Below are positions 24,578 through 50,139 of a stretch of 64,000 bases of DNA, in pieces. Position 1 is the first letter of the stretch, and each line of letters starts with the position of its first letter. This DNA is from Patescibacteria group bacterium (GTDB lineage Bacteria > Patescibacteriota > Patescibacteriia > Magasanikbacterales > GWA2-37-8). Made by a program: the position numbers and the translations under genes. The DNA is taken from NCBI GenBank assembly GCA_004321885.1, contig SCQK01000004.1, positions 1 through 64,000 of the forward strand, written 5' to 3'. The notes below the pieces were generated by a model that worked only from the letters and a program-made list of their open reading frames with translations, was not told the origin of the DNA and made no database searches.

Positions 24578-25339
24578 ATGCCCAAGCAACCTTATAAAAT
24601 CATTGCTGAAACTGCGGATTATCTGGTGGTGGAAAAACCGGCCGGCCTGTTGACGCATTCCACCGCCAAACGCGAGCCAGACTCACTGGCTGAGTTGTTG
24701 GCAAAAAAATACCCGGAAATGCGCGAGGTGGGCGACTCCCCGGCCGAACGCCCGGGCATTGCGCACCGGCTGGACAAAGAAGCCTCGGGCTTGCTGGCGG
24801 CGGCGCGCACCCAAAAGATGTTTGAACATTTGAAAAAACAGTTCCAGGAACGAACCGTGGAAAAAGAATACATCGCCCTGGTACACGGCAAGGTGGCAAA
24901 AGATGTCGGCGAAATAAACTTCCCCATCGGCCGAGCGACGAACAAGGAGAGGATGGCGGCCAGGCCGTTTACCCCTCCCTCGCCACCACACCAAAAATTT
25001 TGGTGTGGTGGCGAGCCCTCCCCTTCTAAGGGGGAGGGGAAAATGGCCAGCACTGAATTTGAGGTGGAAAAGCGATTCATCAATTTCACCCTATTGCGCG
25101 TCAAAATCCACACCGGCCGCATGCACCAGATTCGCGTTCATTTGCTCGCCTACGGCAACCCGCTCGTCGGCGACCCGCTCTACATCAAAAGAAAACAAAA
25201 GCGCAAATGGGACCAGGCGCTGGGACGACTTTTCTTGCACTGCGTAAAATTAGTGTTCAAAGATTTGAATGGGGCGCCGCGAACATTTACTTCCCCGTTG
25301 CCGCTTGAATTGGAAAATTTTCTTAAAAAAATAAAGTAG
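24578..25339 (+). CDS. RluA-family pseudouridine synthase with ~25-aa in-frame palindromic insert
   Basis: HRLDKEASGLLAAART (catalytic Asp motif) and GRMHQIRVHL. The insert PPSPPHQKFWCGGEPSPSKGEGK is encoded by the nested palindromes at 24979-25040. Confidence 0.8.
   Translation: MPKQPYKIIAETADYLVVEKPAGLLTHSTAKREPDSLAELLAKKYPEMREVGDSPAERPGIAHRLDKEASGLLAAARTQKMFEHLKKQFQERTVEKEYIALVHGKVAKDVGEINFPIGRATNKERMAARPFTPPSPPHQKFWCGGEPSPSKGEGKMASTEFEVEKRFINFTLLRVKIHTGRMHQIRVHLLAYGNPLVGDPLYIKRKQKRKWDQALGRLFLHCVKLVFKDLNGAPRTFTSPLPLELENFLKKIK
24979..25040. repeat. composite palindrome (CCACCACACCAAAAATTTTGGTGTGGTGG + CCCTCCCCTTCTAAGGGGGAGGG) inside the RluA-family CDS
   Basis: The first palindrome is a perfect 29-mer. 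The second is an RPE-like family member. Confidence 0.7.
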
Positions 25340-26416: not shown

Positions 26417-29341
26417 TTATCCTTTTAAGTACTTCCCGGTCCAGCTTTTTTTGCTCTTCATAATATCACGCGGAGCGCCCGCGGCCACAATCTCTCCGCC
26501 CTTGTCCCCGCCCTCTGGCCCCATGTCTATCACCCAATCGGCTGAACGTATCACGTCCAGATTGTGCTCTATCACCAGCACGGTGTTGCCTTTGGCCACC
26601 AATCTGTTCAACACTTCCAACAAATGTTTTATATCTTCAAAATGCAAGCCAGTGGTGGGTTCGTCCAAAATATATAATGAATGTCCGGACGCGCTGCGCG
26701 ACAGCTCGGCGGACAGCTTTATTCTCTGGGCTTCGCCGCCCGAAACCGTGGTGGCCGGCTGGCCCAGCTGAACATAGCCCAAACCGATTTCGCGCAACAC
26801 GCCCAACTTGCCGGCGATGGGCGGAACGTCGTTAAAAAAAGCAAAGGCCTCGTCTACGGTCATACGCAAGACATCGGCGATATTCTTGTTGCGGTAATGT
26901 ATCTCCAGGGCCTCGCGATTATAGCGGTCTCCGCCGCACTCATTGCACTGCATGTACACGTCGGCCAAAAATTGCATGGGGATGCGCACATAGCCCTCAC
27001 CGGCGCAGGCCTCGCAACGGCCCCCGCCCTTCACGTTAAAACTGAACTTGCCGGCGTCGTAGCCGTTCATTTTGGCTTCGGGCAAACCGGCGAACAAATC
27101 GCGAATCAAAGTAAACAGCCCCGTGTACGTAGCCGGATTACTGCGCGGGGTGCGGCCGATGGGCGACTGGTCCACGGTAATTACTTTGTCAATATTTTCA
27201 ATGCCTTTAATTTTTTTGTGCTCGCCCGGCAAATCTTTGGCCCGATAAAAATGGCGGGCCAGCTGTCTGCCCAAAATATCCACGATGAGCGAAGACTTGC
27301 CCGAACCAGACACGCCGGTCACGCACACGAATTTGCCCAAGGGGATGTCGGCGTCCACATTTTTCAAATTAAAGGCCCTGGCGCCGAGGATAGAAATTTT
27401 TTTGTTGGATTTTTGCAGACGCGCCCCCATTTTTATGGGCAGGACGCCCCGGCCGACTAGATACTTTCCCGTAACCGATTTTTTATTTTTTTTTATCTGT
27501 TGTAAACTGCCGGCCGCCACGATTTCGCCGCCGGAGAGGCCGGCGCCCGGCCCCATATCAATTAAATAATCCGCGCCGGCCATCATAGCGCTGTCGTGCT
27601 CCACCACTATTACAGTGTTGCCCAAATCGCGCAAAAATTTCAGGGCGCCGATGAGTTTGGCGTTGTCTTTGGGATGCAGGCCCACCGAAGGCTCGTCTAA
27701 AATATATATAATGCCGGTAAGGCCCGACGACAGCTGGCCGGCCAAACGCACGCGCGTCACCTCTCCACCCGAGAGCGTGTTCATGGCGCGCCCCAGCGAC
27801 AAGTATCCCAAGCCCACCTCCTGTAAATTTTGCAAGCGCTTGATTGTTTCTTTGATGATGGTTTCACCGTGCTGGGCAAAAACTTTGCCTCCCATCCCCC
27901 ATTTGTCCCCCCCTCTGGCAGAGGAAGAAAGCTTTTCCAAAACCGACACGGCTTGCCCGGCCGACAGCTCGGAAATATCCGCGATGCTGTACTGGCCCAG
28001 CTTCACGGCCAATGACTCCACGCGCAAACGTTTGCCATGGCACAGGGAACACACCTGCTCGCGCATGTACTGTTCTATTTCACCGCGCACATAATCAGAA
28101 TCGGTCTCCAAATGCCGCTGGGTCAGATTGGTAATCACCCCGGAAAAAACGGTTTTCTTTCCGTCTATTTCGTATGTCTCGTTGTCGCCGTACAAAATCA
28201 GCTTCATCTGCGCATCGGAAAGTTCTGCTACTGGCGCATTCAGAGAAAAATCATGTTTCTGCGCGACCGCGGCCAGAATTTTTTGGTACCACGTTTGATT
28301 GCCGGTAATGCGGGTCCAGGGCTGGATAGCGCCCTCGGCCAAAGTAAGCCGCTTGTTAGGCGCCACCAGCTCCGGGTCAACTTCCATGGTCACGCCCAAA
28401 CCAGTACAACGCGGGCAGGCGCCATAAGGGCTGTTAAAACTAAAACTGCGCATGTCAATCGCCGGCATTACTTTGCCGCATTTAGCGCACAGCCCTTCGG
28501 TGGAAAACAACACTTCCCTCCCCCTTTTTAAGGGGAAGGCGGGGTGGGGGTAAGACGCCGCAATCACACTGCCGTTGCTCAAATCCAAGGCCGTCTCCAC
28601 CATTTTGGCGATGTTGGGCTGTTTCTTGGCATTCTGGGTGGAAATATTTCCCACCACCAGTTCCACGTTGTATTTTTTATTGGGCAAAAAACCAAAACGC
28701 GCGAATTCGTTTAGTTTCATCAGCTCGCCGTTTACCCGCACCGTGTCAAAACCCGACTTTTCCACTTTGTCCAGCAATGCGGCATGACTGGGTTCCCCTC
28801 CCCCTTTTAGAGCTTGTCCCGAACTTGTTTCGGGAGGGAGGACAGAGGAGGGGGTATTTGGCGAGGATGGGGTCAATGGAGACAACACCCACACCTCGGA
28901 ACTATTCCGCGTCATCTTTCTCACTTCCTCGGTAATCTGGCCGGGCGTAAACGACATCACTGGCACGCCGCAACCGGGGCAGTATTGCGCGCCCACGCGC
29001 GCGAAGAGCAAACGCAAATAATCGTAAATCTCGGTGATAGTGCCCACGGTGGAACGCGGATTCTGCGAAGAACTTTTCTGGCCGATGGCGATGGTGGGAG
29101 AAAGCCCCTCCACGCTGTCCACGTCCGGCTTGTCGCGCACGTCCATAAACTGGCGCGCGAAAGAAGACAGCGACTCGGCGTAGCGGCGCTGGCCCTCGGC
29201 GTAAATTGTGTCAAAGGCGAGCGAGGATTTTCCCGAACCGGACAAGCCGGTAATCACTACCAGCTTGTTCTTGGGAATTTCCACGTTTATATTCTTCAAG
29301 TTGTGTACTCTCGCCCCTTTGATGATTATTTTATCAGCCAT
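26417..29341 (-). CDS. uvrA: excinuclease ABC subunit A, with two in-frame RPE-like inserts
   Basis: Two ABC ATPase modules ([24 protein letters not shown]) and zinc-finger cysteines. Inserts [12 protein letters not shown] (element 28516-28550) and [31 protein letters not shown] (element 28793-28860). Confidence 0.9.
28793..28860. repeat. RPE-like nested palindrome inside uvrA
   Basis: ttcccctcccccttttagagcttgtcccgaacttgtttcgggagggaggacagaggagggggtatttgg. Confidence 0.65.
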
Positions 29342-31140: not shown

Positions 31141-31250
31141 AGAATGCTTTAAATTTCCAATTTCCAATCAATGTCCAATGACCAATTACCAATATCCAAT
31201 TTGGACATTTGGATTTTGGCATTGATTTGACATTGGAAATTTGTCATTTG
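31141..31250. repeat. AT-rich CCAAT/ATTGG long palindromic element
   Basis: aaatttccaatttccaatcaatgtccaatgaccaattaccaatatccaatttggacatttggattttggcattgatttgacattggaaattt. Confidence 0.6.
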
Positions 31251-31974: not shown

Positions 31975-32100
31975 AATGACCAATTACCAATAACCAATTT
32001 CCAATCAAATCCAAATGCCAAATAACAAACTTGGACATTTTAACTTTGACATTAGGAATTGATTTGATATTAGAAATTTGGATTTTGGCATTTACCGGAT
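31975..32100. repeat. AT-rich CCAAT/ATTGG long palindromic element
   Basis: atgaccaattaccaataaccaatttccaatcaaatccaaatgccaaat...ttggacattttaactttgacattaggaattgatttgatattagaaatttggattttggcattt. Confidence 0.6.
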
Positions 32101-34483: not shown

Positions 34484-34530
34484 TCCTCCCCTTGTTAAGG
34501 GGAGGATTAAGGAGGGGTATTCTTAATTAT
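34484..34530. repeat. RPE-like palindrome, intergenic
   Basis: tcctccccttgttaaggggaggattaaggaggggtattc. Confidence 0.6.
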
Positions 34531-36358: not shown

Positions 36359-36363
36359 ATAAT

Positions 36364-36536
36364 CGCTGGCTCCATAGTCCCCGACTAAGTCGGGGCTGTG
36401 GAGCCGTATTGCAAACTGGCTCCACACAGAGTATGGAGCCAGCGGGTGTAGAAAATCGCTGGCTCCATAGTCCCCGACTAAGTCGGGGCTGTGGAGCCGT
36501 ATTGCAAACTGGCTCCACACAGAGTATGGGGTCAGC
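36364..36536. repeat. two tandem REP-like elements (GGCTCCA family) between convergent rnj and ldh
   Basis: 36364-36444 and 36456-36536 are near-identical. Each is cgctggctccatagtccccgactaagtcggggctgtggagccgtattgcaaactggctccacacagagtatggagccagcg. Confidence 0.8.
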
Positions 36537-36553
36537 GAGCAAAGGGAGGGGTT

Positions 36554-37884: not shown

Positions 37885-38470
37885 ACATAAATTTCAAATC
37901 TCCTTTTTAGATAGTATAGCAAACAAAAACGCCCCTGTTAAGGGGGCGTTTGTGGTTCATGGTTATAAGCCGAATTTTGTACCCCGACGTTACGTCGGGG
38001 CGATGTTCATTTCTCTGGTCTTGACATTGCTGTCAAAATCTTAGCGAGCGAACTTTTTATCCCGACTAAGTCGGGACTCTGCTCTTGCGCCAGACAGGGC
38101 TTGGCACTCTTCGACGTTGCCGCCGAAGGGAGTATGGTAGCTTTGGTCTCGAGAACCACAACTCCCATACACTTTTCACCTTTGACGAACCCCGACTAAG
38201 TCGGGGTGAACGTCCGCCTGTGGCGGACTCTCATGAATCGCTAGTATTGTCTCTGTGCCGCTTTCCCTACGCCGACGTTGCCGCCGACGTGGCGGGTGTT
38301 ACCCGTTGCCTTTTTCTTTACCGGCTAGTTCCGCTAAGGGCGGACAGACGGAAAGGGCGTTCGGACTTTCCTTCCCGACTAAGTCGGGACGAACATCTGC
38401 CACGAACTGATTAAATGTAGCACAAAAACGCCGACTTGTCAAGACAGCTAAAAAAGAGTAAAATGGCAGT

Positions 38471-41018: not shown

Positions 41019-42212
41019 ATGCGCGTTGGCATTGATGTCAGGCCGCTGATGAATGACGTGCGCACCGGCATTGGCGAATACACGCATTTTTTGCTGGACA
41101 CTATTTTTGACATTGATAAAAAGAACGAATATTTTCTGTTTTACAACTCCGGCAAAGATGTCGGCGCCAATATTCCCCAGTGGACGCAAAATAATATTCA
41201 TTATGTCGCGAGCAGATGGCCCAATAAAATTTTCAACGCGTCCATAAAATTTTTCAACCGGCCGCGAATCAAAGAGGTGGACATTTTTTTTTCTCCTAAT
41301 CTCAACTTCACCGCCCTGTCGCCGAAAACAAAATTTATTCTCACGGTTCACGACTTGTCCTTTGAGCTGTTTCCGGAATTTTTTTCCGCCAAACAGCGGC
41401 TGTGGCACAAAATGATAAACCCGCGCAGACAATGCCAGCGGGCCGATATTATTATCGCGCCCTCTGAAAACACCAAGCGGGATTTGAGGGAGATATATAA
41501 TATAGAAGAGAAAAAAATAAAAGTGATTTACCCGGGAATATGTCATCCCGACCCGCCACAGGGCGGGGAGGGATCTCTGTTCACGGCTGGCTCCATAATC
41601 CCCCCCACAGGGGTGGAGCTAAACTGCAAGCTGGCTCCACAGCCCGCCTTTGGCGGGATTATGGAGCCAGCCAATTCCAATCCCTACATCCTCTTCCTCG
41701 GCACCATTGAGCCGCGCAAAAATATTATCGGCCTGATAGAGGCGTTTGAAAAAGCCTGCCCCTCGCTCCCGGCGCCTTACACCCTCGTTATCGCCGGGGC
41801 CGCGGGCTGGAACAATAAACAGATTTACGAACGCGCCAAAAATTCCCCCATTAAAGATAAAATTAAAATTTTGGGATACGTGCGGCCGGAAGAAAAGCCG
41901 GCTCTGTATGCCGGCGCGGCCTTGTTTTGCTATCCCAGCATTTACGAGGGCTTTGGTTTTCCGGTTTTGGAAGCCATGTCCGCGGGGACTCCGGTTTTAA
42001 CCTCAAACCGCTCTTCCCTGCCGGAAATAACGAGCGGCGCCGCGCACCTGGTAAATCCAAACAATGTTTCCGACATGGCCGCAGGCATAATAAACATTTT
42101 AACCAACGAAAAACTGCGCAATTTTTTGAAAGAAAAGGGCCAAGAGCAGGCCGCGAAATTTTTATGGCAAGAAGCGGCGGAAAAATTTTTAAGCGTTATT
42201 CGCTCTTTGTAA
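41019..42212 (+). CDS. glycosyltransferase family 4, carrying an in-frame REP-element insert in the inter-domain linker
   Basis: GT4 C-terminal domain YPSIYEGFGFPVLEAMSAGTPVLTS. Linker GICHPDPPQGGEGSLFTAGSIIPPTGVELNCKLAPQPAFGGIMEPANS is encoded by the palindrome at 41549-41578 plus the REP copy at 41585-41672. Confidence 0.8.
   Translation: MRVGIDVRPLMNDVRTGIGEYTHFLLDTIFDIDKKNEYFLFYNSGKDVGANIPQWTQNNIHYVASRWPNKIFNASIKFFNRPRIKEVDIFFSPNLNFTALSPKTKFILTVHDLSFELFPEFFSAKQRLWHKMINPRRQCQRADIIIAPSENTKRDLREIYNIEEKKIKVIYPGICHPDPPQGGEGSLFTAGSIIPPTGVELNCKLAPQPAFGGIMEPANSNPYILFLGTIEPRKNIIGLIEAFEKACPSLPAPYTLVIAGAAGWNNKQIYERAKNSPIKDKIKILGYVRPEEKPALYAGAALFCYPSIYEGFGFPVLEAMSAGTPVLTSNRSSLPEITSGAAHLVNPNNVSDMAAGIINILTNEKLRNFLKEKGQEQAAKFLWQEAAEKFLSVIRSL
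41585..41672. repeat. REP-like element (GGCTCCA family) inserted in frame within a GT4 coding sequence
   Basis: cggctggctccataatcccccccacaggggtggagctaaactgcaagctggctccacagcccgcctttggcgggattatggagccagcc. Same architecture as the 4229-4315 copy. The ORF stays open. Confidence 0.7.
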
Positions 42213-42321: not shown

Positions 42322-43449
42322 ATGGCAGAAAAAAAAATCCTCATCCTGCACGACTACTTCCTGTACAAAGGCGGCGGAGAACGGCTGGTGATTTCTTTGG
42401 CCAAGGGTTTGGGGGCCGATATCGCCACGGCTTTTATCGCGGCCGGCGCCTTTGACCCGCGCGACCACGGCATCAAAACCTTTGAATTATACAAAGAGAG
42501 CCGTTTTTCGCGAATCCCCGGCTTCAGATATTTGCAAACGCAATTCGCTTTTTTGCTCAAAACCGGCTTTGCCAAAAACTACGATGTCGTTATTTACAGC
42601 GGCGACTGCCTCACAGCGCGATTGCGCCTAACCAAACCAAAAAGCATCGCCTACATGCATACTCCTCCGCGTCATTTGTACGACGCCTATAGCGAACGCC
42701 TGCGCGAATATCCGTTGTGGAAAAAAATAATTTTTGTTCCCTTTGTTTGGTTCAACCGTTTGCGCTTTTCTTATTTAACAAAAAAAATGAACGTGATCGT
42801 CACAAATTCTCAAAACACGCGCGCGCGCATCAAAGAGTATTTGGGATTGGATTCCATTGTCGTTTATCCGCCCTGCGATGTCGTGCCCTTGTCCAATCTG
42901 GGCTACGGCGATTATTTTTTTTCCTGGGCCCGGCTCTATCCGATTAAACGCGTGGATAAGATCGTGGAGGCCTTTGCCGCCATGCCGGATAAAAAACTGG
43001 TGGTGGCCTCGGGCGGGCCGGATCTGGAAAAAATCCAAAAACTGGCGGCCGGCTGCCAGAACATCAAAGTGCTGGGCTGGATCAGCGACCAAGAATTGGA
43101 ACAACACCTGGGCAAATGTTTGGCCACCATTTACGTTCCGGTGCGCGAGGACTTTGGCATGAGCGCGGTTGAATCCATGAATGCAGGCAAACCGGTAATC
43201 GGCGCGGCCGAAGGCGGGCTCTTGGAAATAATTGAACACGAAAAAAACGGCTTTCTGCTAAAACCCGATTTTAGCGCCGAAGATTTACGCGCGGCCGTAC
43301 GCGCCATGACCGCGGACAAAGCCGCGGCTATGGCCAATGCCTGCCTGGCCACGAGCAAAAAATTCAGCGAGCAAAACTTCATTGAGGGAATGAAAAAAAT
43401 AGTGTATAATGTCATTGCGAGGCCGAAGCAAACCCATGCCCAACGATAG
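42322..43449 (+). CDS. glycosyltransferase family 4
   Basis: KILILHDYFLYKGGGERL...EDFGMSAVESMNAGKPVIG. Confidence 0.8.
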   Translation: MAEKKILILHDYFLYKGGGERLVISLAKGLGADIATAFIAAGAFDPRDHGIKTFELYKESRFSRIPGFRYLQTQFAFLLKTGFAKNYDVVIYSGDCLTARLRLTKPKSIAYMHTPPRHLYDAYSERLREYPLWKKIIFVPFVWFNRLRFSYLTKKMNVIVTNSQNTRARIKEYLGLDSIVVYPPCDVVPLSNLGYGDYFFSWARLYPIKRVDKIVEAFAAMPDKKLVVASGGPDLEKIQKLAAGCQNIKVLGWISDQELEQHLGKCLATIYVPVREDFGMSAVESMNAGKPVIGAAEGGLLEIIEHEKNGFLLKPDFSAEDLRAAVRAMTADKAAAMANACLATSKKFSEQNFIEGMKKIVYNVIARPKQTHAQR

Positions 43450-43452
43450 GGA

Positions 43453-45897
43453 TTGCTTCGCCACTTCATGGCTCGCAATGACAGCGACACAATGGCTAAG
43501 ATACAACTGCGCCGGTGCGCTCTTTGCCAAGAGCCCGGCCACAACAAATCCACCTGCCCCCAGCGGCACGATTTTGAAGTAGCCAAGCCCTCCGCGGCCC
43601 TGCATTTTTTTGTGCACCACACGAACCGCGACTCTTCCCCTTCTCCGCACGTAGTAAACCTCAAAGAAAAAGAGGAGCTCTGGCGCGACATAGAATCTTG
43701 CGAGCCAGAACACGGCCCGAAAAATGACGACTATTATTTTTATCACATCAAACACGCTGGCCACGACGACCCGCGCCAAACCCCGGTCGTCAATATCCTG
43801 CCGCAGGACCTGGACGCGCCCACGCCGCGGCCCTTGCCCAAAAAAAGCCAGCCCAAAAACGACAAAAAATTTTTCTCTGGAGCCGTGAGAAGCTTTAGGA
43901 AAACGTTTACTCCGGCGCGGGCCGCAGTCATTGTCTCTATTCTCACGCTGGTCGCGTTCGCCCCGTCCAGCGCGCAAAATTACTATCTAAGCGTGAAGTC
44001 AACCGCGGCCACGGCGGCCGAAAGCGGCGCCGCCGCTTTTTCGGCCCTGCGCGATTCCACCGCCGCCATTATGAGCGGCCAGCTGGACCTGGCGAGGAGC
44101 GCGCTGGAAAACGCCCTGCGCAATTTCAATCTGGCAGTGGAAACATTAAACAGCAACCATCGTTTTTTACAAACCGCCGCCGCCAGCCTGCCTATTGTGG
44201 GCCGCGACGTTTCGGGTAAGCAAAAACTGCTGCTGGCCGGCCAAGCCATTGCCCGCGGCAATGCCGAGCTTTTGCAAGGCGCGACGGAAATGGAGCGCGC
44301 AGACGCTGACCTGGCAAAAAAACTTAACGGCCTGGTGTCTTATATACAGCTATCCGTGCCGGAATTTCAAAAGGCCCTGGCCAGCCTGAAGGACGTAAGT
44401 GACGACAGCCTGCCGGAAAATTTTCAGCCGGCCCTGCAAACCGTTAAATCGGTTTTTCCCGCGCTGGTAAATGATTTAAGCGACATCGCGCGCCTGGCCC
44501 AATCCATTTCCGAAATTTCGGGCGCCCGGGGTTTGCGCCGCTATCTTTTAATTTTCCAAAATCCAAACGAAATCCGGGCTACCGGCGGATTTATGGGCAG
44601 TTTCGCCCTGCTGGAAATAGAAGACGGCAAAATGCGCAATCTGACGGTGCCGCCCGGGGGTTCATACGACCTGCAGGGTCAGCTGGACACCTACCTGGAG
44701 CCGCCGGCGCCCCTGCTTCTTTCCAACAAGCGCTGGGAATTTCAAGACGCAAACTGGTTTCCGGATTTTCCGGCCAGCGCCCAAAAAATTCTTTGGTTCT
44801 ATCGCCACAGCCGCGGCATTACGGCCGACGGGGTCATTGCCATAAACGCCACTGCGCTAAACCGCGCGCTTGAGCTCACCGGGCCCGTGGCGGACAAAAA
44901 ACGGGGGCTGATTTTGGCCAAAGACAACGCCCTGGACGTCATTTCCAAGGTGGTGGAATTTGGTCCGGAAAAGAAGGACAAAAAACCAAAGCAGATTTTA
45001 TCCGACCTGGCGCCAATTTTCGCGGACTATTTTCAAAATCTTAAAGCCGGCGAAACCCTGCCCGCCCTGTCCTCCCTGCTTGACGCCTTGCAAAAAAAAG
45101 AAATTCAGGTATATTTCAACGACAAGGCAACGCAGAACATTATGGAAGAATTCGGCTGGGCCGGCAAAATGGCGAATACCTACCCGGACCAGGATTATTT
45201 AATGGTGGTTAATTCCAATCTGCAGGGTCAAAAAAGCGACGCGGCCATTTCCCAGCTGGTCAGTCACCAGGCGGTAGCGCAAGCCGACGGCAGTATCATA
45301 GACAGCGTGGTGATAGAACGAAAACACAACGGCGTCCCCGGCGAACCACTCTACGGCCAGACCAACATAGATTATATCCGCGTCTATGTGCCGGCCGGCA
45401 GCGAACTCAAGAGCGCCAGCGGTTTTGTCTGGCCCGATGAAAAAAAATTCAAAGCCCCGGCCGCCTTTTATCAAAAAGACGCTTTCCTGGCCGGCCTGGA
45501 AAAAGAAATAGCCATAGACGACAGGTCTGGCACGCGCGTAACCGATGAATTCGGCAAAAGGGCTTTCGGCAACTGGCTCATCACCGAACCGGGCCAGACC
45601 AGCCGCGTGGAATTCGTATATCAGTTGCCTTGGCTGGCTTTTGCCGCCGATAAAGCAAACTCGCTAAAATGGGCGGAAAAAATTTTTGGCGGAGCAATTT
45701 CGGCCCGCTATCAGTTGGTGGCTCAAAAACAATCCGGGGTGGAGTCCGCGTTTGAAAGCCAATTTATTTTCCCGGCCGGTTGGACGCCGGTTTGGCGCCA
45801 GGGCGAAAATATGACGTTGGCCGGAAACGGCGCCGATGTTTCCCAAACTATGTTGGACACGGACAAGATTTGGAGTTTGGTTTTAGAAAAAGAATAA
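43453..45897 (+). CDS. DUF4012-domain membrane protein with N-terminal CCHC zinc-knuckle-like motif
   Basis: CALCQEPGHNKSTCP (C-x2-C-x4-H-x4-C), TM AAVIVSILTLVAFA, then YLLIFQNPNEIRATGGFMGSFALLEI, the DUF4012 signature recalled from CPR and actinobacterial cell-envelope loci. Confidence 0.6.
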   Translation: MLRHFMARNDSDTMAKIQLRRCALCQEPGHNKSTCPQRHDFEVAKPSAALHFFVHHTNRDSSPSPHVVNLKEKEELWRDIESCEPEHGPKNDDYYFYHIKHAGHDDPRQTPVVNILPQDLDAPTPRPLPKKSQPKNDKKFFSGAVRSFRKTFTPARAAVIVSILTLVAFAPSSAQNYYLSVKSTAATAAESGAAAFSALRDSTAAIMSGQLDLARSALENALRNFNLAVETLNSNHRFLQTAAASLPIVGRDVSGKQKLLLAGQAIARGNAELLQGATEMERADADLAKKLNGLVSYIQLSVPEFQKALASLKDVSDDSLPENFQPALQTVKSVFPALVNDLSDIARLAQSISEISGARGLRRYLLIFQNPNEIRATGGFMGSFALLEIEDGKMRNLTVPPGGSYDLQGQLDTYLEPPAPLLLSNKRWEFQDANWFPDFPASAQKILWFYRHSRGITADGVIAINATALNRALELTGPVADKKRGLILAKDNALDVISKVVEFGPEKKDKKPKQILSDLAPIFADYFQNLKAGETLPALSSLLDALQKKEIQVYFNDKATQNIMEEFGWAGKMANTYPDQDYLMVVNSNLQGQKSDAAISQLVSHQAVAQADGSIIDSVVIERKHNGVPGEPLYGQTNIDYIRVYVPAGSELKSASGFVWPDEKKFKAPAAFYQKDAFLAGLEKEIAIDDRSGTRVTDEFGKRAFGNWLITEPGQTSRVEFVYQLPWLAFAADKANSLKWAEKIFGGAISARYQLVAQKQSGVESAFESQFIFPAGWTPVWRQGENMTLAGNGADVSQTMLDTDKIWSLVLEKE

Positions 45898-47803: not shown

Positions 47804-48731
47804 CATCCAAAAATTTTTCAACCAACTCTTCGGCCTTTTTTGGGTCGCTTCCCTCAATCCATTTTATCCTCTGGTCGCGCTTAAACCATGTAATCTGGCG
47901 CTTGGCGTAATTTTTTGTGTCTTTTTTGAGCGTCGCCAAGGCCTGCTCCAAACTCATCTCGCCGCGCAGATAATAGCCGATTTGCCGGTAGCCGAGCGTG
48001 CTCATGCTGGGCAAATCCCATCCGTATTTTTGCTTGGTTAAGCCAGACACTTCTTCAAGCAGGCCGCGCTTAATGTATGAATCGCATCTTTCCTCTATGC
48101 GCTTTAACAAAATTTCTTTGGGCCAGTGAAGGCCGATTTGCAAAACGTCAAACAAGGGCGCGCCCTTTTTTCTTTGCGATGAAAATGACGCGCCCGTGAT
48201 TATTTGCACTTCCAGGGCGCGAATCACGCGGCGCGGATTTTTGAGGTCAATTTTACGGGCGCCGGCCGGGTCAAGTTGCCGCAACAACCTGGCCAACTCG
48301 TCCAAACCCTTGCTTTCCAGACTGCGGCGCAAATTTTTGTTTGGCGCGATGGCCGGGATGTCAAGATTGTCAATTAAAGACCAGAGGTAAAGGCCGGTGC
48401 CGCCCACGACAATCGGCAATTTCCCGCGCGCGCTGATATCGCGGCAAATTCTGATTGCCGCGGACTTAAAATCAGCCACCGTGTAATTTTTGCCCGGGTC
48501 TATGATGTCCATCAGATAGTGCGGCACGGCTTCCACGAAATACGCTTTGTGCCGGCCGTGGCGGCGCCACTCGCCCACGGGCTTGTCCGTGGCAATGTTC
48601 ATTTTTTGATAAATCTGCCGCGAATCAGCCGAAACAATCTCGCCGTTAAATTTTTTGGCCAGCGCGATGCCCAGCTCGGTTTTGCCCGAAGCCGTGGGCC
48701 CGACAATGGCGATGATTTTAGGAAGAGACAT
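47793..48731 (-). CDS. miaA: tRNA dimethylallyltransferase
   Basis: P-loop IIAIVGPTASGKT, SADSRQIYQKMNIATDKP. Start set at M28. The upstream extension is encoded by the repeat at 48738-48852. Confidence 0.85.
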   Translation of the reverse strand: MSLPKIIAIVGPTASGKTELGIALAKKFNGEIVSADSRQIYQKMNIATDKPVGEWRRHGRHKAYFVEAVPHYLMDIIDPGKNYTVADFKSAAIRICRDISARGKLPIVVGGTGLYLWSLIDNLDIPAIAPNKNLRRSLESKGLDELARLLRQLDPAGARKIDLKNPRRVIRALEVQIITGASFSSQRKKGAPLFDVLQIGLHWPKEILLKRIEERCDSYIKRGLLEEVSGLTKQKYGWDLPSMSTLGYRQIGYYLRGEMSLEQALATLKKDTKNYAKRQITWFKRDQRIKWIEGSDPKKAEELVEKFLDAKD

Positions 48732-48737
48732 AGGTCG

Positions 48738-48852
48738 TTCCCCTCCCCTTGATATCTGCGGATATTTACTCATTCGTTCGGAAGTAAAAGTATAAACTTT
48801 TACTTCACTCACTCATTTCGTAAATAAGGGGAGGGTTAGGGAGGGGTAAAAT
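48738..48852. repeat. composite RPE-like palindromic element spanning the miaB 3' end and the miaB-miaA junction
   Basis: ttcccctccccttgatatctgcggatatttactcattcgttcggaagtaaaagtataaacttttacttcactcactcatttcgtaaataaggggagggttagggaggggtaaaat. Encodes the miaB tail LPLPNPPLIYEMSE. Confidence 0.65.
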
Positions 48853-50139
48853 AATTTCACCCTTTAAGACCCAAACATCAGCGGAAGTAATCTTAACATC
48901 CAAAATTTTTCCAATCAAATTTTTTGCGCCGGCAAACTGCGCGAGCTTCATTTCCGAAGAGTTGCCCGAGCAAATCCCTGCCTCGCATTTGTCCGCCAAT
49001 ACCGAAACTGTTTTGCCGATGTATTTTTGATTTTTGCGATAAGTTGTTTCTTCCATCAATTCTTGTAAAATCTGCCAGCGGCGCTTTTTTTCTAGGCGCG
49101 GCACATCATCTTTGAAGGCCCTGGCCGCGGCCGTCCCACTGCGCTGACTATACATGGCCGTGTAGGAAATGTCAAAATCACACTCTTTGTACAGAGCCAC
49201 CGTGTTTTGAAACTGTTTCTCGGTCTCGCCGCAAAAACCCGCGATAATATCCGTGCCAATGGCGATACTTGGTTTGGCCTGGCGGATTTTTTTTATCAAA
49301 TCAATATATTGCTCCCGCGTGTACTGGCGATTCATCTTGCGCAAAATTTCATTATCCCCGCTTTGAACCGGCAGGTGCAGATAATTCACCTGCTTGGGCA
49401 GTTTCAGCGCCTCTATTTGCGCGTCGGAAAAATAACGCGGGTCCGCGGCGGTAAAATGCAAGCGCTCCAACCCAGCCAACTTATTCAGCTCTTTCAGTAA
49501 ATCGACGAAACTGTCCCCCTCCCCCTTTTTAAGGGGGAGGTTGGGTAGGGGTAAATCCGGATCGCGGTAATTATTCACCACCTGCCCGAGCAGAATAATT
49601 TCTTTCGCGCCATTTTCAATCGCTATTTTTACCTCGTTAATAATTTCTTTGGCCGGCCGGTTTTTCTCGCGGCCGCGCGCCTGCGGCACCACGCAATAGG
49701 TGCAATAATTATCACAGCCGGTCTGAATAGTGATAAACGTTTGAAATCTACTCGTTCGCGCCGGCGCCAACTCTAAATAATCTCCAAGGTCAGCGCCTCC
49801 CAGCCATCTTGACAGCACCCCCATTTCGTGTATCGGAAAATACAAGTCAACCCCTTTTAGCCTGCTTTTTAACTTCCCGTCTTTGTCGCGGCCCGGCATA
49901 CAGCCGGTAACAGCGATTGTCAAATCCGGCTTTTTTGCCTTAAGTTGGCTCCAATTTCGCACTAGCCCGTGAACGCGGTCTTCGGCGCTTTGGCGCACCG
50001 AGCAGGTATTGACAATTAGTAAATCCGAGTTTTCGGCTTTGGCGCTTCTGGTCATCCCCAAGAAATTCAAAAAACCGGCGATTCTCTCTGAATCGTTTTT
50101 GTTCATCTGACAGCCGAAGGTAACGAGAAAATACTTCAT
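48805..50139 (-). CDS. miaB: tRNA-2-methylthio-N6-dimethylallyladenosine synthase (radical SAM methylthiotransferase)
   Basis: MTTase N-domain FGCQMNKNDSE, radical-SAM CxxxCxxC (CDNYCTYC), TRAM domain. In-frame RPE-like insert [18 protein letters not shown] at 49511-49560. Confidence 0.85.
   Translation of the reverse strand: MKYFLVTFGCQMNKNDSERIAGFLNFLGMTRSAKAENSDLLIVNTCSVRQSAEDRVHGLVRNWSQLKAKKPDLTIAVTGCMPGRDKDGKLKSRLKGVDLYFPIHEMGVLSRWLGGADLGDYLELAPARTSRFQTFITIQTGCDNYCTYCVVPQARGREKNRPAKEIINEVKIAIENGAKEIILLGQVVNNYRDPDLPLPNLPLKKGEGDSFVDLLKELNKLAGLERLHFTAADPRYFSDAQIEALKLPKQVNYLHLPVQSGDNEILRKMNRQYTREQYIDLIKKIRQAKPSIAIGTDIIAGFCGETEKQFQNTVALYKECDFDISYTAMYSQRSGTAAARAFKDDVPRLEKKRRWQILQELMEETTYRKNQKYIGKTVSVLADKCEAGICSGNSSEMKLAQFAGAKNLIGKILDVKITSADVWVLKGEIILPLPNPPLIYEMSE

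What the first reader, a model, noticed from the sequence alone, without database searches (positions are those of the whole stretch)
28516..28860. CCTCCCCTT-N-AAGGGGAGG palindromes (RPE-like) inserted in frame in conserved housekeeping genes, adding Gly/Glu/Pro-rich linkers
There are at least 14 copies. Four are intergenic (11308, 17417, 34484, 63891). The rest are inside coding sequences without breaking the frame: uvrA (28516-28550 and 28793-28860), miaB (49511-49560, ...PLKKGEG...), gyrB (16806-16828, ...SSPARGEDEGG...), the RluA-family gene (25016-25040, ...PSKGEGK...), LamG paralog 3 (9866-9888), and the surface protein (two tandem copies at 12709-12800, ...PPLIGEG...). A composite copy also sits at the miaB/miaA junction (48738-48852). 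Palindrome-encoded peptide inserts in essential enzymes are a striking genome-wide feature. Their hairpin potential may also act on the mRNA.
Basis: partly seen in the sequence, partly recalled or inferred. Interest (0 to 1): 0.7.

Follow-up and report, generated by a model that had tools for sequence, protein, structure and literature searches.

The report
Triplex-type repeats inside housekeeping genes
The short CCTCCCC…GGGGAGG palindromes are real and do sit in frame inside uvrA, miaB, rluA and other genes of this candidate-phyla-radiation bacterium. They are not Rickettsia-like elements but a variant of the known, widespread BoxC/"intrastrand triplex" repeat, which had been described only between genes.

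Summary
I found 13 loci of a (C)CCTCCCC(C)TT-loop-AAGGGG(G)AGG(G) palindrome in 64 kb, and nine lie in frame in coding sequences. The window comes from a Patescibacteria (CPR) metagenome-assembled genome.

In UvrA the 22-aa insert is unique among 120 nearest homologues and is a disordered loop in an AlphaFold model. The second insert lengthens a β-hairpin turn.

The interpretation needs correcting. Every copy carries a third block, 2-9 nt downstream, that mirrors the purine arm (for example AGGGGAGGA-TTA-AGGAGGGGT). This is the Y-R-RH architecture of BoxC / PIT / "TMECO" intrastrand-triplex motifs (Holder 2015, PMC4666352).

The same variant occurs in at least 120 metagenome contigs (GC 0.34-0.73). 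It also occurs in Nostoc, Rahnella, Aeromonas, Azospirillum and Paenibacillus replicons. Across those hits the third block covaries with the purine arm.

Three things differ from the published picture, where the motif is "always intergenic" in E. coli:
- Density is very high (10 strict hits per 64 kb, against 7 per 1.59 Mb elsewhere).
- Copies sit in frame in conserved genes, here and in LeuRS, CCA-adding enzyme, RtcB and others from metagenomes.
- Other hairpin repeats are nested in the element's loops.

How the element spreads remains unknown. No transposase was found.

The parts
28517..28551 (+). Triplex-motif (TM) copy inside uvrA, site 2. Blocks are Y CCTCCCCCT, loop, R AGGGGAAGG, CGG, RH GGTGGGGGTA. 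It lies antisense to the gene and encodes ...[12 protein letters not shown]...
   Evidence: Sequence. Net gain is about 9 aa in a loop that is 22 residues long in 91 of 120 homologues. It lies between strands E258-264 and E276-280 of the AlphaFold model.
28795..28857 (+). Composite TM copy inside uvrA, site 1. The Y arm CCCCTCCCCC and the R/RH blocks GGGAGG-ACAGA-GGAGGGGGTAT flank a nested hairpin. It encodes ...[22 protein letters not shown]...
   Evidence: The 22-aa insert is unique among 120 homologues and 7 genome orthologues. pLDDT is below 50 for residues 160-182, with no secondary structure.
28817..28835 (.). Nested 'family D' hairpin TCCCGAA-CTTGT-TTCGGGA, inside loop 1 of the uvrA site-1 TM.
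   Evidence: The same core occurs at 20939-20953 in queA.
26417..29341 (-). uvrA gene (974 aa), which hosts two TM copies.
   Evidence: PDB match to UvrA 2r6f, E = 0. 100% identical to a Patescibacteria MAG protein, P0001.
49518..49552 (+). TM copy inside miaB, antisense to the gene: CCTCCCCCT-TTTTA-AGGGGGAGG-TTG-GGTAGGGGT. It encodes ...[13 protein letters not shown]...
   Evidence: Strict triplex scan. About 8 extra residues against MiaB 7mjz, inside the radical-SAM domain.
48740..48850 (+). Composite TM at the miaB/miaA junction. The Y arm CCCCTCCCCTT and the R/RH blocks AAGGGGAGG-GTTA-GGGAGGGGTAA are separated by a 73-nt AT-rich hairpin-bearing segment. It supplies the last ~15 codons and the stop of miaB, and it lies just upstream of the likely miaA ATG near 48728.
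24967..25040 (-). Composite TM inside the RluA-family gene. The Y/R hairpin is at 25016-25038 and the RH block GGAGGGGTA at 24970-24978. A perfect 37-nt palindrome (24979-25015) is nested between R and RH. It encodes ...FTPPSPPHQKFWCGGEPSPSKGEG...
   Evidence: Gain of 17 aa against the syntenic orthologue in L081. The Pfam/PDB domain is split at residues 130-152.
16806..16840 (+). TM copy in gyrB, sense orientation: TCCTCCCCT-GCCCG-AGGGGAGGA-TGA-AGGAGGGGC. It lies in a variable linker of the C-terminal region.
   Evidence: The linker is about 36 aa longer than in S. aureus GyrB, but no longer than in the closest syntenic orthologue.
12711..12745 (+). TM copy in the surface-like protein gene, antisense, encoding ...SVPPLIGEG...
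12768..12801 (+). Degenerate TM copy, part of a 57-nt tandem duplication in the same gene.
   Evidence: Tandem repeat at 12678-12801, period 57.
9855..9887 (-). TM copy in the LamG paralogue, sense orientation: CCCCCCCTT-AAT-AAGGGGGGG-CTA-GGGGGGGTA. It encodes ...FPPLNKGGLGG...
11306..11342 (-). Degenerate intergenic TM copy, downstream of the surface-protein gene.
17416..17450 (-). Perfect intergenic TM: CTCTCCCCT-TTATA-AGGGGAGAG-ACA-GAGAGGGGT. It fills the secE-nusG spacer.
   Evidence: The spacer is 45 nt here and 40 nt, without a TM, in L081.
34484..34518 (+). Perfect intergenic TM between a tRNA gene and the RNase J gene.
63891..63939 (.). Palindromic double TM, one motif on each strand sharing the central hairpin. 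It folds as a 57-nt two-stem hairpin upstream of the Nramp gene.
   Evidence: hits on both strands. DNA fold -16.8 kcal/mol, z = -4.0.

Best explanation
These are copies of a variant of the BoxC / PIT / 'TMECO' class of G/C-rich intrastrand-triplex repeats.

**Structure.** The unit is about 35 nt on one strand:
- a pyrimidine block (C)CCTCCCC(C)T
- a 3-7-nt loop
- the complementary purine block
- a spacer of about 3 nt
- a third G-rich block that mirrors the purine block and ends in GGGGTA

As single-stranded DNA it can fold into a hairpin whose purine arm is bound by the third block through reverse-Hoogsteen pairs (G*G·C and A/T*A·T). The same four G-runs could alternatively form a G-quadruplex.

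**What is shown and what is inferred.** The element is a dispersed, cross-phylum DNA repeat, and no mobilising enzyme is known for it. In this reduced CPR genome it has multiplied to an unusually high density.

The copies that persist inside genes are those that kept the frame, carry no stop codon and fell in permissive surface loops or linkers. They are translated as Pro-Leu-...-Gly-Glu/Arg-Gly peptides and look like tolerated passengers rather than adaptations.

- Shown: the architecture, its cross-taxon distribution, the mirror covariation, the in-frame lineage-specific location, and the loop position in UvrA.
- Inferred: that the DNA-level fold is what is maintained, that the coding copies are near-neutral, and that the loops of the folded element attract further hairpin insertions.
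- Unknown: the mechanism of spread.
For: **Architecture.** A strict triplex scan (stems 7-9 nt, loops up to 9 nt, at most 1 mismatch in total) finds 12 hits. Ten are genuine copies, and eight of those have 9-nt stems with loops of 5 or 3 and 3 or 5 nt. Twenty Markov-1 random sequences gave 0-1 hits each. The third block mirrors the purine arm copy by copy, for example GGGGAGAG/GAGAGGGG, GGGGGGG/GGGGGGG and GGGGGAGG/GGAGGGGG.

**Covariation across metagenome hits.** In 105 parsed hits, the G-run lengths of the purine block and the third block agree in 79% and 59% of cases. Permuted pairings give 46% and 39%, and none of 2000 permutations reached the observed values. The middle base of the third block is T or A in 103 of 105.

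**Distribution.**
The hits share a consensus that the search pattern did not specify.
- PLSDB hits include Azospirillum, Rahnella, Nostoc, Dolichospermum, Pseudanabaena, Aeromonas, Photobacterium, Moraxella and Paenibacillus.
- No recurrent neighbouring gene or transposase was found, and none is in the window.

**Literature.** The published pattern is CCCTCNCCC-N3-6-GGGNGAGGG-N3-GGGNGAGGG. The papers describe a stable triplex in vitro, no associated transposase, palindromic pairs, and abundance of G/C-rich motifs in cyanobacteria (PMC4666352; PMC5100583).

**Coding copies.**
- They are in frame.
- They are absent from orthologues.
- They occupy a disordered loop and a β-turn in the UvrA model.
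- The same variant is in frame in LeuRS, the HD domain of a CCA-adding enzyme, LplA/B, COX15 and RtcB of other organisms, and in a Nostoc CDS.
Against: - The exact TMECO consensus is not matched: the stem is CCTCCCC rather than CCCTCNCCC. E. coli genomes give only 4 weak hits to this variant.
- Holder et al. found no evidence for stable triplex formation in vivo. The fold is therefore a potential, not a demonstrated state.
- The nearest UvrA homologue in the protein database is only 68% identical, and none of six exact-protein contig look-ups for this genome returned its own contig. Recency, polymorphism and exact insertion boundaries therefore cannot be tested.
- Net length gains are smaller than the element: none in gyrB or in the secE-nusG spacer, +9 aa for a 12-aa element in uvrA, and +8 aa for a 13-aa element in miaB. 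Simple insertion does not describe all cases.
- With 9 of 13 copies in the 85% of the window that is coding, depletion from genes is weak. That is unexpected for purely deleterious or neutral passengers, but the sample is small.
Confidence: 0.75

Rival explanations
1. A lineage-specific miniature transposable element (RPE- or MITE-like), moved in trans by a transposase encoded elsewhere in the genome. On this view the resemblance to BoxC/TM motifs is superficial.
For: - The palindromic double form at 63891-63939 looks like terminal inverted repeats.
- In-frame insertion into housekeeping genes parallels RPEs (PMC10969869).
- Composite copies at 48740-48850 and 28795-28857 look like inverted-repeat arms flanking cargo.
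- Only 64 kb of the genome was seen.
Against: - No transposase is in the window.
- No recurrent neighbouring gene appears in 120 metagenome loci.
- No target-site duplication is evident.
- Most copies are the asymmetric 35-nt three-block unit rather than an inverted-repeat pair.
- The identical variant is present in many phyla with mirror covariation, which a lineage-specific MITE does not predict.
- The element is 4-5 times shorter than RPEs.
Confidence: 0.1
2. RNA-level regulatory hairpins. The arms would sequester or supply a Shine-Dalgarno sequence (GGAGG), pause ribosomes, or terminate or stabilise transcripts.
For: - The purine arm lies 7-9 nt upstream of the nusG and miaA start codons, and the third block lies upstream of the Nramp start.
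- The hairpins are stable, at about -10 kcal/mol or lower as DNA.
Against: - Almost no other gene in the window has a Shine-Dalgarno sequence, so the organism seems not to rely on one.
- Copies occur in both orientations relative to transcription: 7 antisense and 2 sense within coding sequences.
- The conserved mirror third block has no role in an RNA hairpin. Purine-motif triplexes do not form in RNA (PMC4666352).
- E. coli PIT elements showed no promoter or terminator activity.
Confidence: 0.07
3. Protein-level adaptation. The Pro/Gly/Glu-rich peptides would be selected as flexible linkers or interaction loops.
For: - The inserts fall in loops and linkers.
- UvrA site 2 carries extra residues in 29 of 120 Patescibacteria homologues.
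- Both UvrA inserts lie in what I recall, from memory of the 2r6f structure paper, to be the UvrB-binding domain.
Against: - The same DNA unit occurs in intergenic DNA and in unrelated proteins, in different frames and orientations, giving different peptides.
- What is conserved is the DNA symmetry, not a peptide.
- Insert 1 is predicted to be disordered.
Confidence: 0.05
4. An assembly artefact, or ancestral low-complexity sequence.
For: The source is a metagenome-assembled genome with no independent close relative.
Against: - All intragenic copies keep the frame.
- The same motif is present in finished isolate replicons.
- The inserts are absent from all orthologues examined.
Confidence: 0.03

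Closest known systems
[quoted passage not shown] 2015, PMC4666352)
   Same: - Three blocks on one strand (pyrimidine, complementary purine, mirror purine), with 8-9-nt stems, a 3-6-nt first loop and a ~3-nt second loop.
- A T or A in the third block opposite the A of the purine arm.
- Many dispersed copies.
- Palindromic paired forms.
- No associated transposase.
- Wide taxonomic spread.
   Different: - The stem sequence is CCTCCCC(C)T, not CCCTCNCCC.
- The host is a Patescibacteria genome.
- Density is about 35-fold above a background of 82 other bacterial loci.
- 9 of 13 copies are in frame inside genes, whereas the E. coli motifs are reported as always intergenic.
- Other hairpin repeats are nested in its loops.
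G-quadruplex-hairpin-duplex switch motifs HPG1/HPG2 of E. coli (Kaplan et al. 2016, PMC5100583)
   Same: The same kind of sequence read differently: four G-runs preceded by a complementary C-rich block, often in oppositely oriented pairs.
   Different: They are described as lying only between ORFs. Here the mirror covariation of G-run lengths is what a triplex needs and a quadruplex does not.
Rickettsia palindromic elements (RPE; Ogata et al. 2000, as reviewed in PMC10969869)
   Same: Palindromic repeats inserted in frame in unrelated housekeeping genes of a reduced genome, in positions compatible with the protein fold. This is the same consequence for proteins.
   Different: RPEs are about 150 bp, restricted to Rickettsia, and each family encodes a conserved peptide. 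These units are 35-57 nt, occur across phyla, have a three-block triplex architecture and give frame-dependent peptides.
REP / REPIN sequences mobilised by RAYT transposases
   Same: Short (20-40 nt) imperfect palindromes, highly repeated, sometimes in inverted pairs. A conserved end is present: GGGGTA, followed by G in many metagenome copies.
   Different: REPs are extragenic and species-specific, and they carry a 5' GTAG directly next to the stem. No RAYT gene was seen here, and the tag lies after a mirror block.

Membership tests
BoxC/PIT/TM intrastrand triplex motif (class II purine motif) | Three consecutive blocks on one strand (pyrimidine, loop, complementary purine, loop, third block), with stems of 6-15 nt and short loops. 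| tested here: met
   eight copies with 9-nt stems and loops of 5 or 3 and 3 or 5 nt. Twelve hits in total, against 0-1 in each of 20 random sequences.
BoxC/PIT/TM intrastrand triplex motif (class II purine motif) | The third block is antiparallel-compatible with the purine block (G*G·C, A*A·T, T*A·T), meaning it is a mirror repeat. | tested here: met
   at most 1 mismatched triplet per copy; mirror covariation of G-run lengths is 79% and 59%, against 46% and 39% permuted. The middle base is T or A in 103 of 105.
BoxC/PIT/TM intrastrand triplex motif (class II purine motif) | The exact TMECO consensus CCCTCNCCC-N3-6-GGGNGAGGG-N3-GGGNGAGGG. | tested here: not met
   The window copies have CCTCCCC(C)T / AGGGG(G)AGG stems. 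This variant gives only 4 weak hits in 5426 E. coli genomes. It is a variant of the class, not TMECO itself.
BoxC/PIT/TM intrastrand triplex motif (class II purine motif) | Dispersed, multi-copy, present in many taxa, with no linked mobility gene. | tested here: met
BoxC/PIT/TM intrastrand triplex motif (class II purine motif) | Intergenic location, reported as 'always' for E. coli K-12. | tested here: not met
   9 of 13 loci are inside coding sequences.
BoxC/PIT/TM intrastrand triplex motif (class II purine motif) | Forms a stable triplex as an isolated strand in vitro. | not testable with these tools
   Only Watson-Crick folding could be computed.
Rickettsia palindromic elements (RPE) | Length of about 100-150 bp with a family-specific encoded peptide. 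| tested here: not met
   The unit is 35 nt (57 nt doubled). Peptides differ with frame and orientation.
Rickettsia palindromic elements (RPE) | In-frame insertion in housekeeping genes at structurally permissive sites. | tested here: met
Rickettsia palindromic elements (RPE) | Sequence homology to RPE families; Rickettsiales host. | not tested
   No RPE sequences were available. The host is Patescibacteria.
REP/REPIN | A GTAG (or CGTC) tag directly flanking a 20-40-nt palindrome. | tested here: inconclusive
   Copies end in GGGGTA followed by A, T or G, but the tag follows the mirror block rather than the stem.
REP/REPIN | A cognate RAYT gene in the genome. | not testable with these tools
   None is in the 64-kb window. 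The rest of the genome could not be fetched.
MITE | Terminal inverted repeats plus a target-site duplication plus a related autonomous IS. | tested here: inconclusive
   Inverted arms occur only in the double and composite copies. No duplication was seen and no parent IS was found.

The most novel reading that the evidence does not exclude
BoxC/triplex-type repeats are not confined to intergenic DNA. In uncultured lineages, especially reduced CPR genomes, they may be a recurrent, cross-phylum source of in-frame loop insertions in core enzymes such as UvrA, MiaB, RluA, LeuRS, CCA-adding enzyme and RtcB. They may enter by a repair- or replacement-type process rather than cut-and-paste transposition, because the net length gain is smaller than the element. 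Their single-stranded loops may then act as landing sites for further hairpin repeats. On this reading the folded DNA form would be biologically real, and the repeats would be a general engine of protein length variation.
Probability: 0.3. Interest if true: 0.7.

Novelty: new variant of a known kind. Interest (0 to 1): 0.5.

Why it matters
BoxC/PIT/TM motifs have been known since the 1990s, but neither their function nor their means of spread is understood. The published work stresses that they never lie inside genes.

A genome in which they are very dense and mostly intragenic gives something intergenic copies cannot: alignable empty sites in conserved proteins. From those, insertion boundaries, replacement versus insertion, orientation and age can be reconstructed.

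It also shows that Rickettsia is not alone in having core enzymes interrupted by translated selfish palindromes. The consequence is the same, but the repeat class and the reduced-genome lineage are both different.

On the practical side, such inserts inflate protein lengths and produce spurious Pro/Gly-rich 'linkers' in CPR annotations and alignments.

Tried and rejected
- **Closer relatives for polymorphism or empty sites.**
  - The genome scan gave at best 63% identity.
  - The protein search gave 68% apart from the window's own protein.
  - Exact-protein look-ups for the Nramp, RluA-family and MiaB proteins and for P0001 returned nothing.
  - Only a 1.1-kb Logan contig carries the DUF3800 gene.
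  - The rest of the 86.7-kb contig could not be fetched.
- **Rfam.** No family matches the element.
- **Literature by CPR, palindrome and in-frame terms, and by peptide or DNA strings of the other repeat families.** Nothing relevant came up.
- **Shine-Dalgarno donor idea.** I dropped this as a main explanation because the genome largely lacks such sites.
- **integron attC resemblance (GTTAGGG/CCCTAAC).** I dropped this by reasoning rather than by a test. The copies are isolated single units inside or between conserved genes, not sites in a cassette array, and I did not look for the extrahelical bases that define attC sites.
- **Phage vector.** There are no hits in 50,697 phage genomes and only 69 in IMG/VR.
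- **Orientation bias in genes (7 antisense to 2 sense) and on the chromosome (9 to 4).** The samples are too small to interpret.
- **Neighbour-gene clustering around 128 metagenome copies.** No shared mobility gene was found.
- **Cyanobacterial link through the heptamer arrays.** There was no plasmid match.
Full report

Yes. The exact 9-mer CCTCCCCTT occurs 6 times in the window against 0.42 expected. With one mismatch it occurs 31 times against 13.7. No shuffle reached either count.

A hairpin scan and manual reading give 13 loci of (C)CCTCCCC(C)TT-loop-AAGGGG(G)AGG(G):
- 9855-9887
- 11306-11342
- 12711-12745
- 12768-12801
- 16806-16840
- 17416-17450
- 24967-25040
- 28517-28551
- 28795-28857
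- 34484-34518
- 48740-48850
- 49518-49552
- 63891-63939

The flagged interval 28516-28860 holds two of them, both inside uvrA.

**2. Source and genes**

The window's UvrA is 100% identical to a protein of a 'Patescibacteria group bacterium' MAG on a contig of 86,683 bp. The next-best protein among 5.8 billion is 68% identical. The nearest homologues that carry a source name are labelled Magasanikbacteria or Patescibacteria group.

- UvrA (26417-29341, minus strand)
- MiaB (48805-50139, minus strand)
- MiaA
- GyrB with an intein (13587-17117)
- an RluA-family synthase (24578-25339)
- a LamG protein (7791-9989)
- a surface-like protein (11346-13325)

No transposase is among the roughly 40 genes of the window.

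**3. In-frame, lineage-specific inserts in loops**

All nine intragenic copies keep the frame and contain no stop codon.

- **UvrA site 1.** This is a clean 22-aa insertion (…[21 protein letters not shown]…). It is absent from 7 genome orthologues and unique among the 120 closest database homologues. One exception, P0013, has a different 10-aa hairpin-encoded insert at the same position.
- **UvrA site 2.** It adds about 9 aa to a turn that is 22 residues long in 91 of 120 homologues. Twenty-nine of the 120 have extra residues there, several of them clearly encoded by repeats.
- **UvrA model.** An AlphaFold2 model (mean pLDDT 81.7, pTM 0.77) places insert 1 in an unstructured stretch with pLDDT below 50 (residues 160-182), between strand 149-155 and helix 186-196. 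It places insert 2 between strands 258-264 and 276-280.
- **MiaB.** It has about 8 extra residues against PDB 7mjz, inside the radical-SAM domain.
- **RluA-family protein.** It has 17 extra residues against its syntenic orthologue, and these split the domain.
- **GyrB.** Here the copy lies in a variable linker that exists, and is slightly longer, in the closest syntenic orthologue. It is not a net insertion.

**4. It is not a bare palindrome**

When the copies are aligned with their flanks, every copy has a further G-rich block 2-9 nt after the purine arm, ending in GGGGTA(A/T/G). That block is the mirror image of the purine arm. Examples are AGGGGAGGA-TTA-AGGAGGGGT (34484), AGGGGAGAG-ACA-GAGAGGGGT (17416), AAGGGGGGG-CTA-GGGGGGGTA (9855) and AGGGGGAGG-AAACA-GGAGGGGGT (63903).

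I wrote a scan for pyrimidine block, loop, complementary purine block, loop, and a reverse-Hoogsteen-compatible third block. It allowed stems of 7-9 nt, loops up to 9 nt and at most 1 mismatch. It returns 12 hits, ten of which are genuine copies, against 0-1 in each of 20 Markov-1 random sequences. Eight hits have 9-nt stems, a first loop of 3 or 5 nt and a second loop of 3 or 5 nt.

The copy at 63891-63939 carries the motif on both strands around one hairpin. It folds as a 57-nt two-stem hairpin (-16.8 kcal/mol, z = -4.0).

**5. The same thing is everywhere**

I scanned metagenome contigs for CCTCCCC-N5-11-GGGGAGG-N2-9-GGGGTA. The hits share a consensus I had not specified: CCCTCCCC-loop-GGGGAGGG-(TTA/CTG)-GGG(T/A)GGGG-TA. 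About 15 of them have the complementary C-rich block upstream as well.

In 105 parsed hits, the G-run lengths of the purine arm and the third block agree in mirror fashion in 79% and 59% of cases. Permuted pairings give 46% and 39%, with maxima of 61% and 52% in 2000 permutations. The base opposite the arm's A is T or A in 103 of 105.

Genes within 2.5 kb of the motif share no recurrent family.

BLAST against PLSDB finds the element in Azospirillum, Rahnella, Nostoc, Dolichospermum, Pseudanabaena, Aeromonas, Photobacterium (more than 40 places), Moraxella and Paenibacillus. Most of these copies are between genes. It is absent from 50,697 phage genomes and rare in IMG/VR.

**6. What it is called**

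A full-text search for the E. coli-type string GAGAGGGTTAGGGTGAGGG led to two papers.

Holder et al. 2015 (PMC4666352) describe this class of repeat:
- It was first named BoxC and then PIT elements. They call it TMECO, with the pattern CCCTCNCCC-N3-6-GGGNGAGGG-N3-GGGNGAGGG.
- It is a class II purine-motif intrastrand triplex that is stable in vitro.
- They counted 3610 copies in 262 proteobacterial genomes. [quoted passage not shown]
- In E. coli K-12 the motif is 'always located intergenically'. It is sometimes found in inverted pairs, and never with transposases.
- It is associated with local genomic instability.
- In vivo footprinting did not show a stable triplex.

Kaplan et al. 2016 (PMC5100583) read the same sequences as a G-quadruplex-hairpin-duplex switch, with 'none within' ORFs. 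A 2021 study of archaeal equivalents also reports only intergenic copies.

The window's family therefore belongs to this class by architecture and behaviour, but with a different stem (CCTCCCC). This variant gives only 4 weak hits in 5426 E. coli genomes.

It is not an RPE. RPEs are about 150-bp, Rickettsia-specific and encode a conserved peptide.

**7. What is unusual here**

(a) *Density.* The window has 10 strict hits (stems of at least 8 nt) in 64 kb. The 82 uvrA-centred loci of other bacteria have 7 in 1.59 Mb, and the CPR relatives L001-L005 and L081 have none.

(b) *Coding location.* Nine of 13 loci lie in the 85% of the window that is coding.
- This is not unique to this genome. The same variant is in frame in a LeuRS editing domain (L121), the HD domain of a CCA-adding enzyme (L102, double form), LplA/B (L098), COX15 (L100) and RtcB (L085) of unidentified metagenome organisms.
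- It is also in frame in a Nostoc TIGR03032-family gene.

(c) *Nesting.*
- The uvrA site-1 copy has a TCCCGAA-CTTGT-TTCGGGA hairpin in loop 1.
- The rluA copy has a perfect 37-nt palindrome in loop 2.
- The miaB/miaA copy has a 73-nt hairpin-bearing segment in loop 1.

So other small repeats have landed in exactly the parts that would be single-stranded in the folded element.

(d) *Net length change is smaller than the element.* There is none in the gyrB linker or in the secE-nusG spacer (45 nt against 40 nt in L081). The gain is +9 aa for a 12-aa unit in uvrA, +8 for 13 in miaB, and +17 for about 24 in rluA. This hints at replacement or indel events rather than clean insertion. At 59-73% orthologue identity it is only a hint.

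**8. How it most likely works**

*Shown:*
- a three-block DNA repeat whose hairpin complementarity and mirror symmetry are both maintained across phyla;
- copies in genes that are translated in frame, as judged from intact conserved ORFs;
- those copies sit where the fold tolerates them.

*Inferred:*
- The maintained property is a DNA-level fold of the G-rich single strand. Purine-motif triplexes do not form in RNA, and mirror covariation is not needed for a quadruplex.
- The intragenic copies are survivors of a selective filter on frame, stop codons and loop position. They are not adaptations, because what is conserved is DNA symmetry rather than a peptide, and the frames and orientations differ.
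- A reduced, probably host-dependent CPR genome tolerates them much as Rickettsia tolerates RPEs.

*Unknown:* how copies are made.

*RNA-level role:* this is unlikely to be general. The purine arm sits 7-9 nt before the nusG and miaA starts, but nearly all other genes lack any Shine-Dalgarno sequence.

**9. Verdict**

It is mis-filed: this is not RPE-like but a BoxC/PIT/triplex-motif variant.
- I rate the novelty as a new variant or behaviour of a known kind. Within the library I could search, nobody describes these motifs inside coding sequences or in CPR genomes.
- Interest is moderate, at 0.5.

Noticed in passing
window 5223-5302, 13629-13745, 21696-21792, 43411-43482: A second repeat family has terminal inverted repeats GTCATTGCGAG…CTCGCAATGAC and is 72-117 bp long. 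One copy lies in the N-terminal extension of GyrB (…PVIARPERG…APRNDK…). One copy lies in frame in QueA, adding 24 aa against the syntenic orthologue. Two copies lie at gene junctions. There are 80-95% matches over 40-72 nt on Calothrix, Tolypothrix and Microchaete plasmids.
   Followed up: partly
window 20936-20956 and 28817-28835; protein P0010: A third family is the hairpin CCYGAA-CTTGT-TTCRGG. In QueA it adds 16 aa (…CHPELVSGS…) near the C-terminus. In uvrA it is nested in the triplex motif. UvrA of another Patescibacterium (P0010) has 'DCHPELVSGS…MLKQVQHD' at site 2.
   Followed up: partly
window 1774, 7756, 20776, 25939, 26359, 36379, 36472 (17-nt each); 37950-38408: A fourth family is the hairpin CCCCGACT-N-AGTCGGGG, with 10 copies against 0.01 expected. 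The seven listed copies lie between genes. The other three, plus a related hairpin at 37982-38000, lie inside the RNase P RNA gene. That gene is 459 nt against a 367-nt model. One of these hairpins is its P3 helix and the others are extra or replaced helices. Similar TCCCGACT hairpins flank genes in the relative L081.
   Followed up: partly
UvrA residues ~262-276 (window 28515-28560) and homologues P0005, P0009, P0010, P0023, P0024, P0026, P0029: The β-turn at UvrA site 2 is an insertion hot spot across Patescibacteria. Twenty-nine of 120 homologues carry extra residues, up to about 37 aa, often Pro/Gly-rich and looking repeat-encoded. Site 1 is also hit independently in P0013, by two small TCTCCC/GGGAGA hairpins.
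   Followed up: partly
upstream 25 nt of ~40 genes across the window: Almost no gene has a Shine-Dalgarno sequence; the leaders are AT-rich. The only GGAGG-like sites are the purine blocks of triplex motifs in front of nusG (17459), miaA (~48728) and the Nramp gene (63883).
   Followed up: partly
window 13433-13586, 22028-22157, 31151-31248, 31975-32093: AT-rich intergenic arrays of heptamers (AATTTCC / AATGACC / AATTACC) are arranged as long imperfect inverted repeats in front of several genes. From memory they resemble cyanobacterial STRR heptamers. There was no plasmid match.
   Followed up: partly
window 36361-36537: A 93-nt unit is duplicated in tandem (97% identity) downstream of the RNase J gene. 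Each unit contains a CCCCGACTAAGTCGGGG hairpin and TGGCTCCA-type inverted repeats. Related GGCTGGCTCCATA inverted repeats lie at 1702-1806 and 41585-41672.
   Followed up: no
window 13587-17117: GyrB is 1176 aa because of an intein, Pfam Intein_splicing across residues 511-936. It also has a ~55-aa basic N-terminal extension partly made of the GTCATTGCGAG repeat.
   Followed up: no
window 61251-61314; 749-1324; 10158-10814: A DUF3800-II RNA motif (Rfam RF02961, 67 bits) and two DUF3800 genes are present. A tRNA gene at 7514-7584 overlaps the mechanical N-terminus of the LamG ORF 5309-7651, so that gene probably starts further downstream.
   Followed up: no
L014 16715-16807 (Dehalococcoidia chromosome), L034, L046: TMECO-type triplex motifs (CCCTCTCCC-TAT-GGGAGAGGG-CTG-GGGTGAGGG, two copies 60 nt apart) and related variants turn up near uvrA in a Dehalococcoidia, a Chloroflexi MAG and Enterovirga. 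The E. coli-type consensus therefore reaches beyond Proteobacteria.
   Followed up: no
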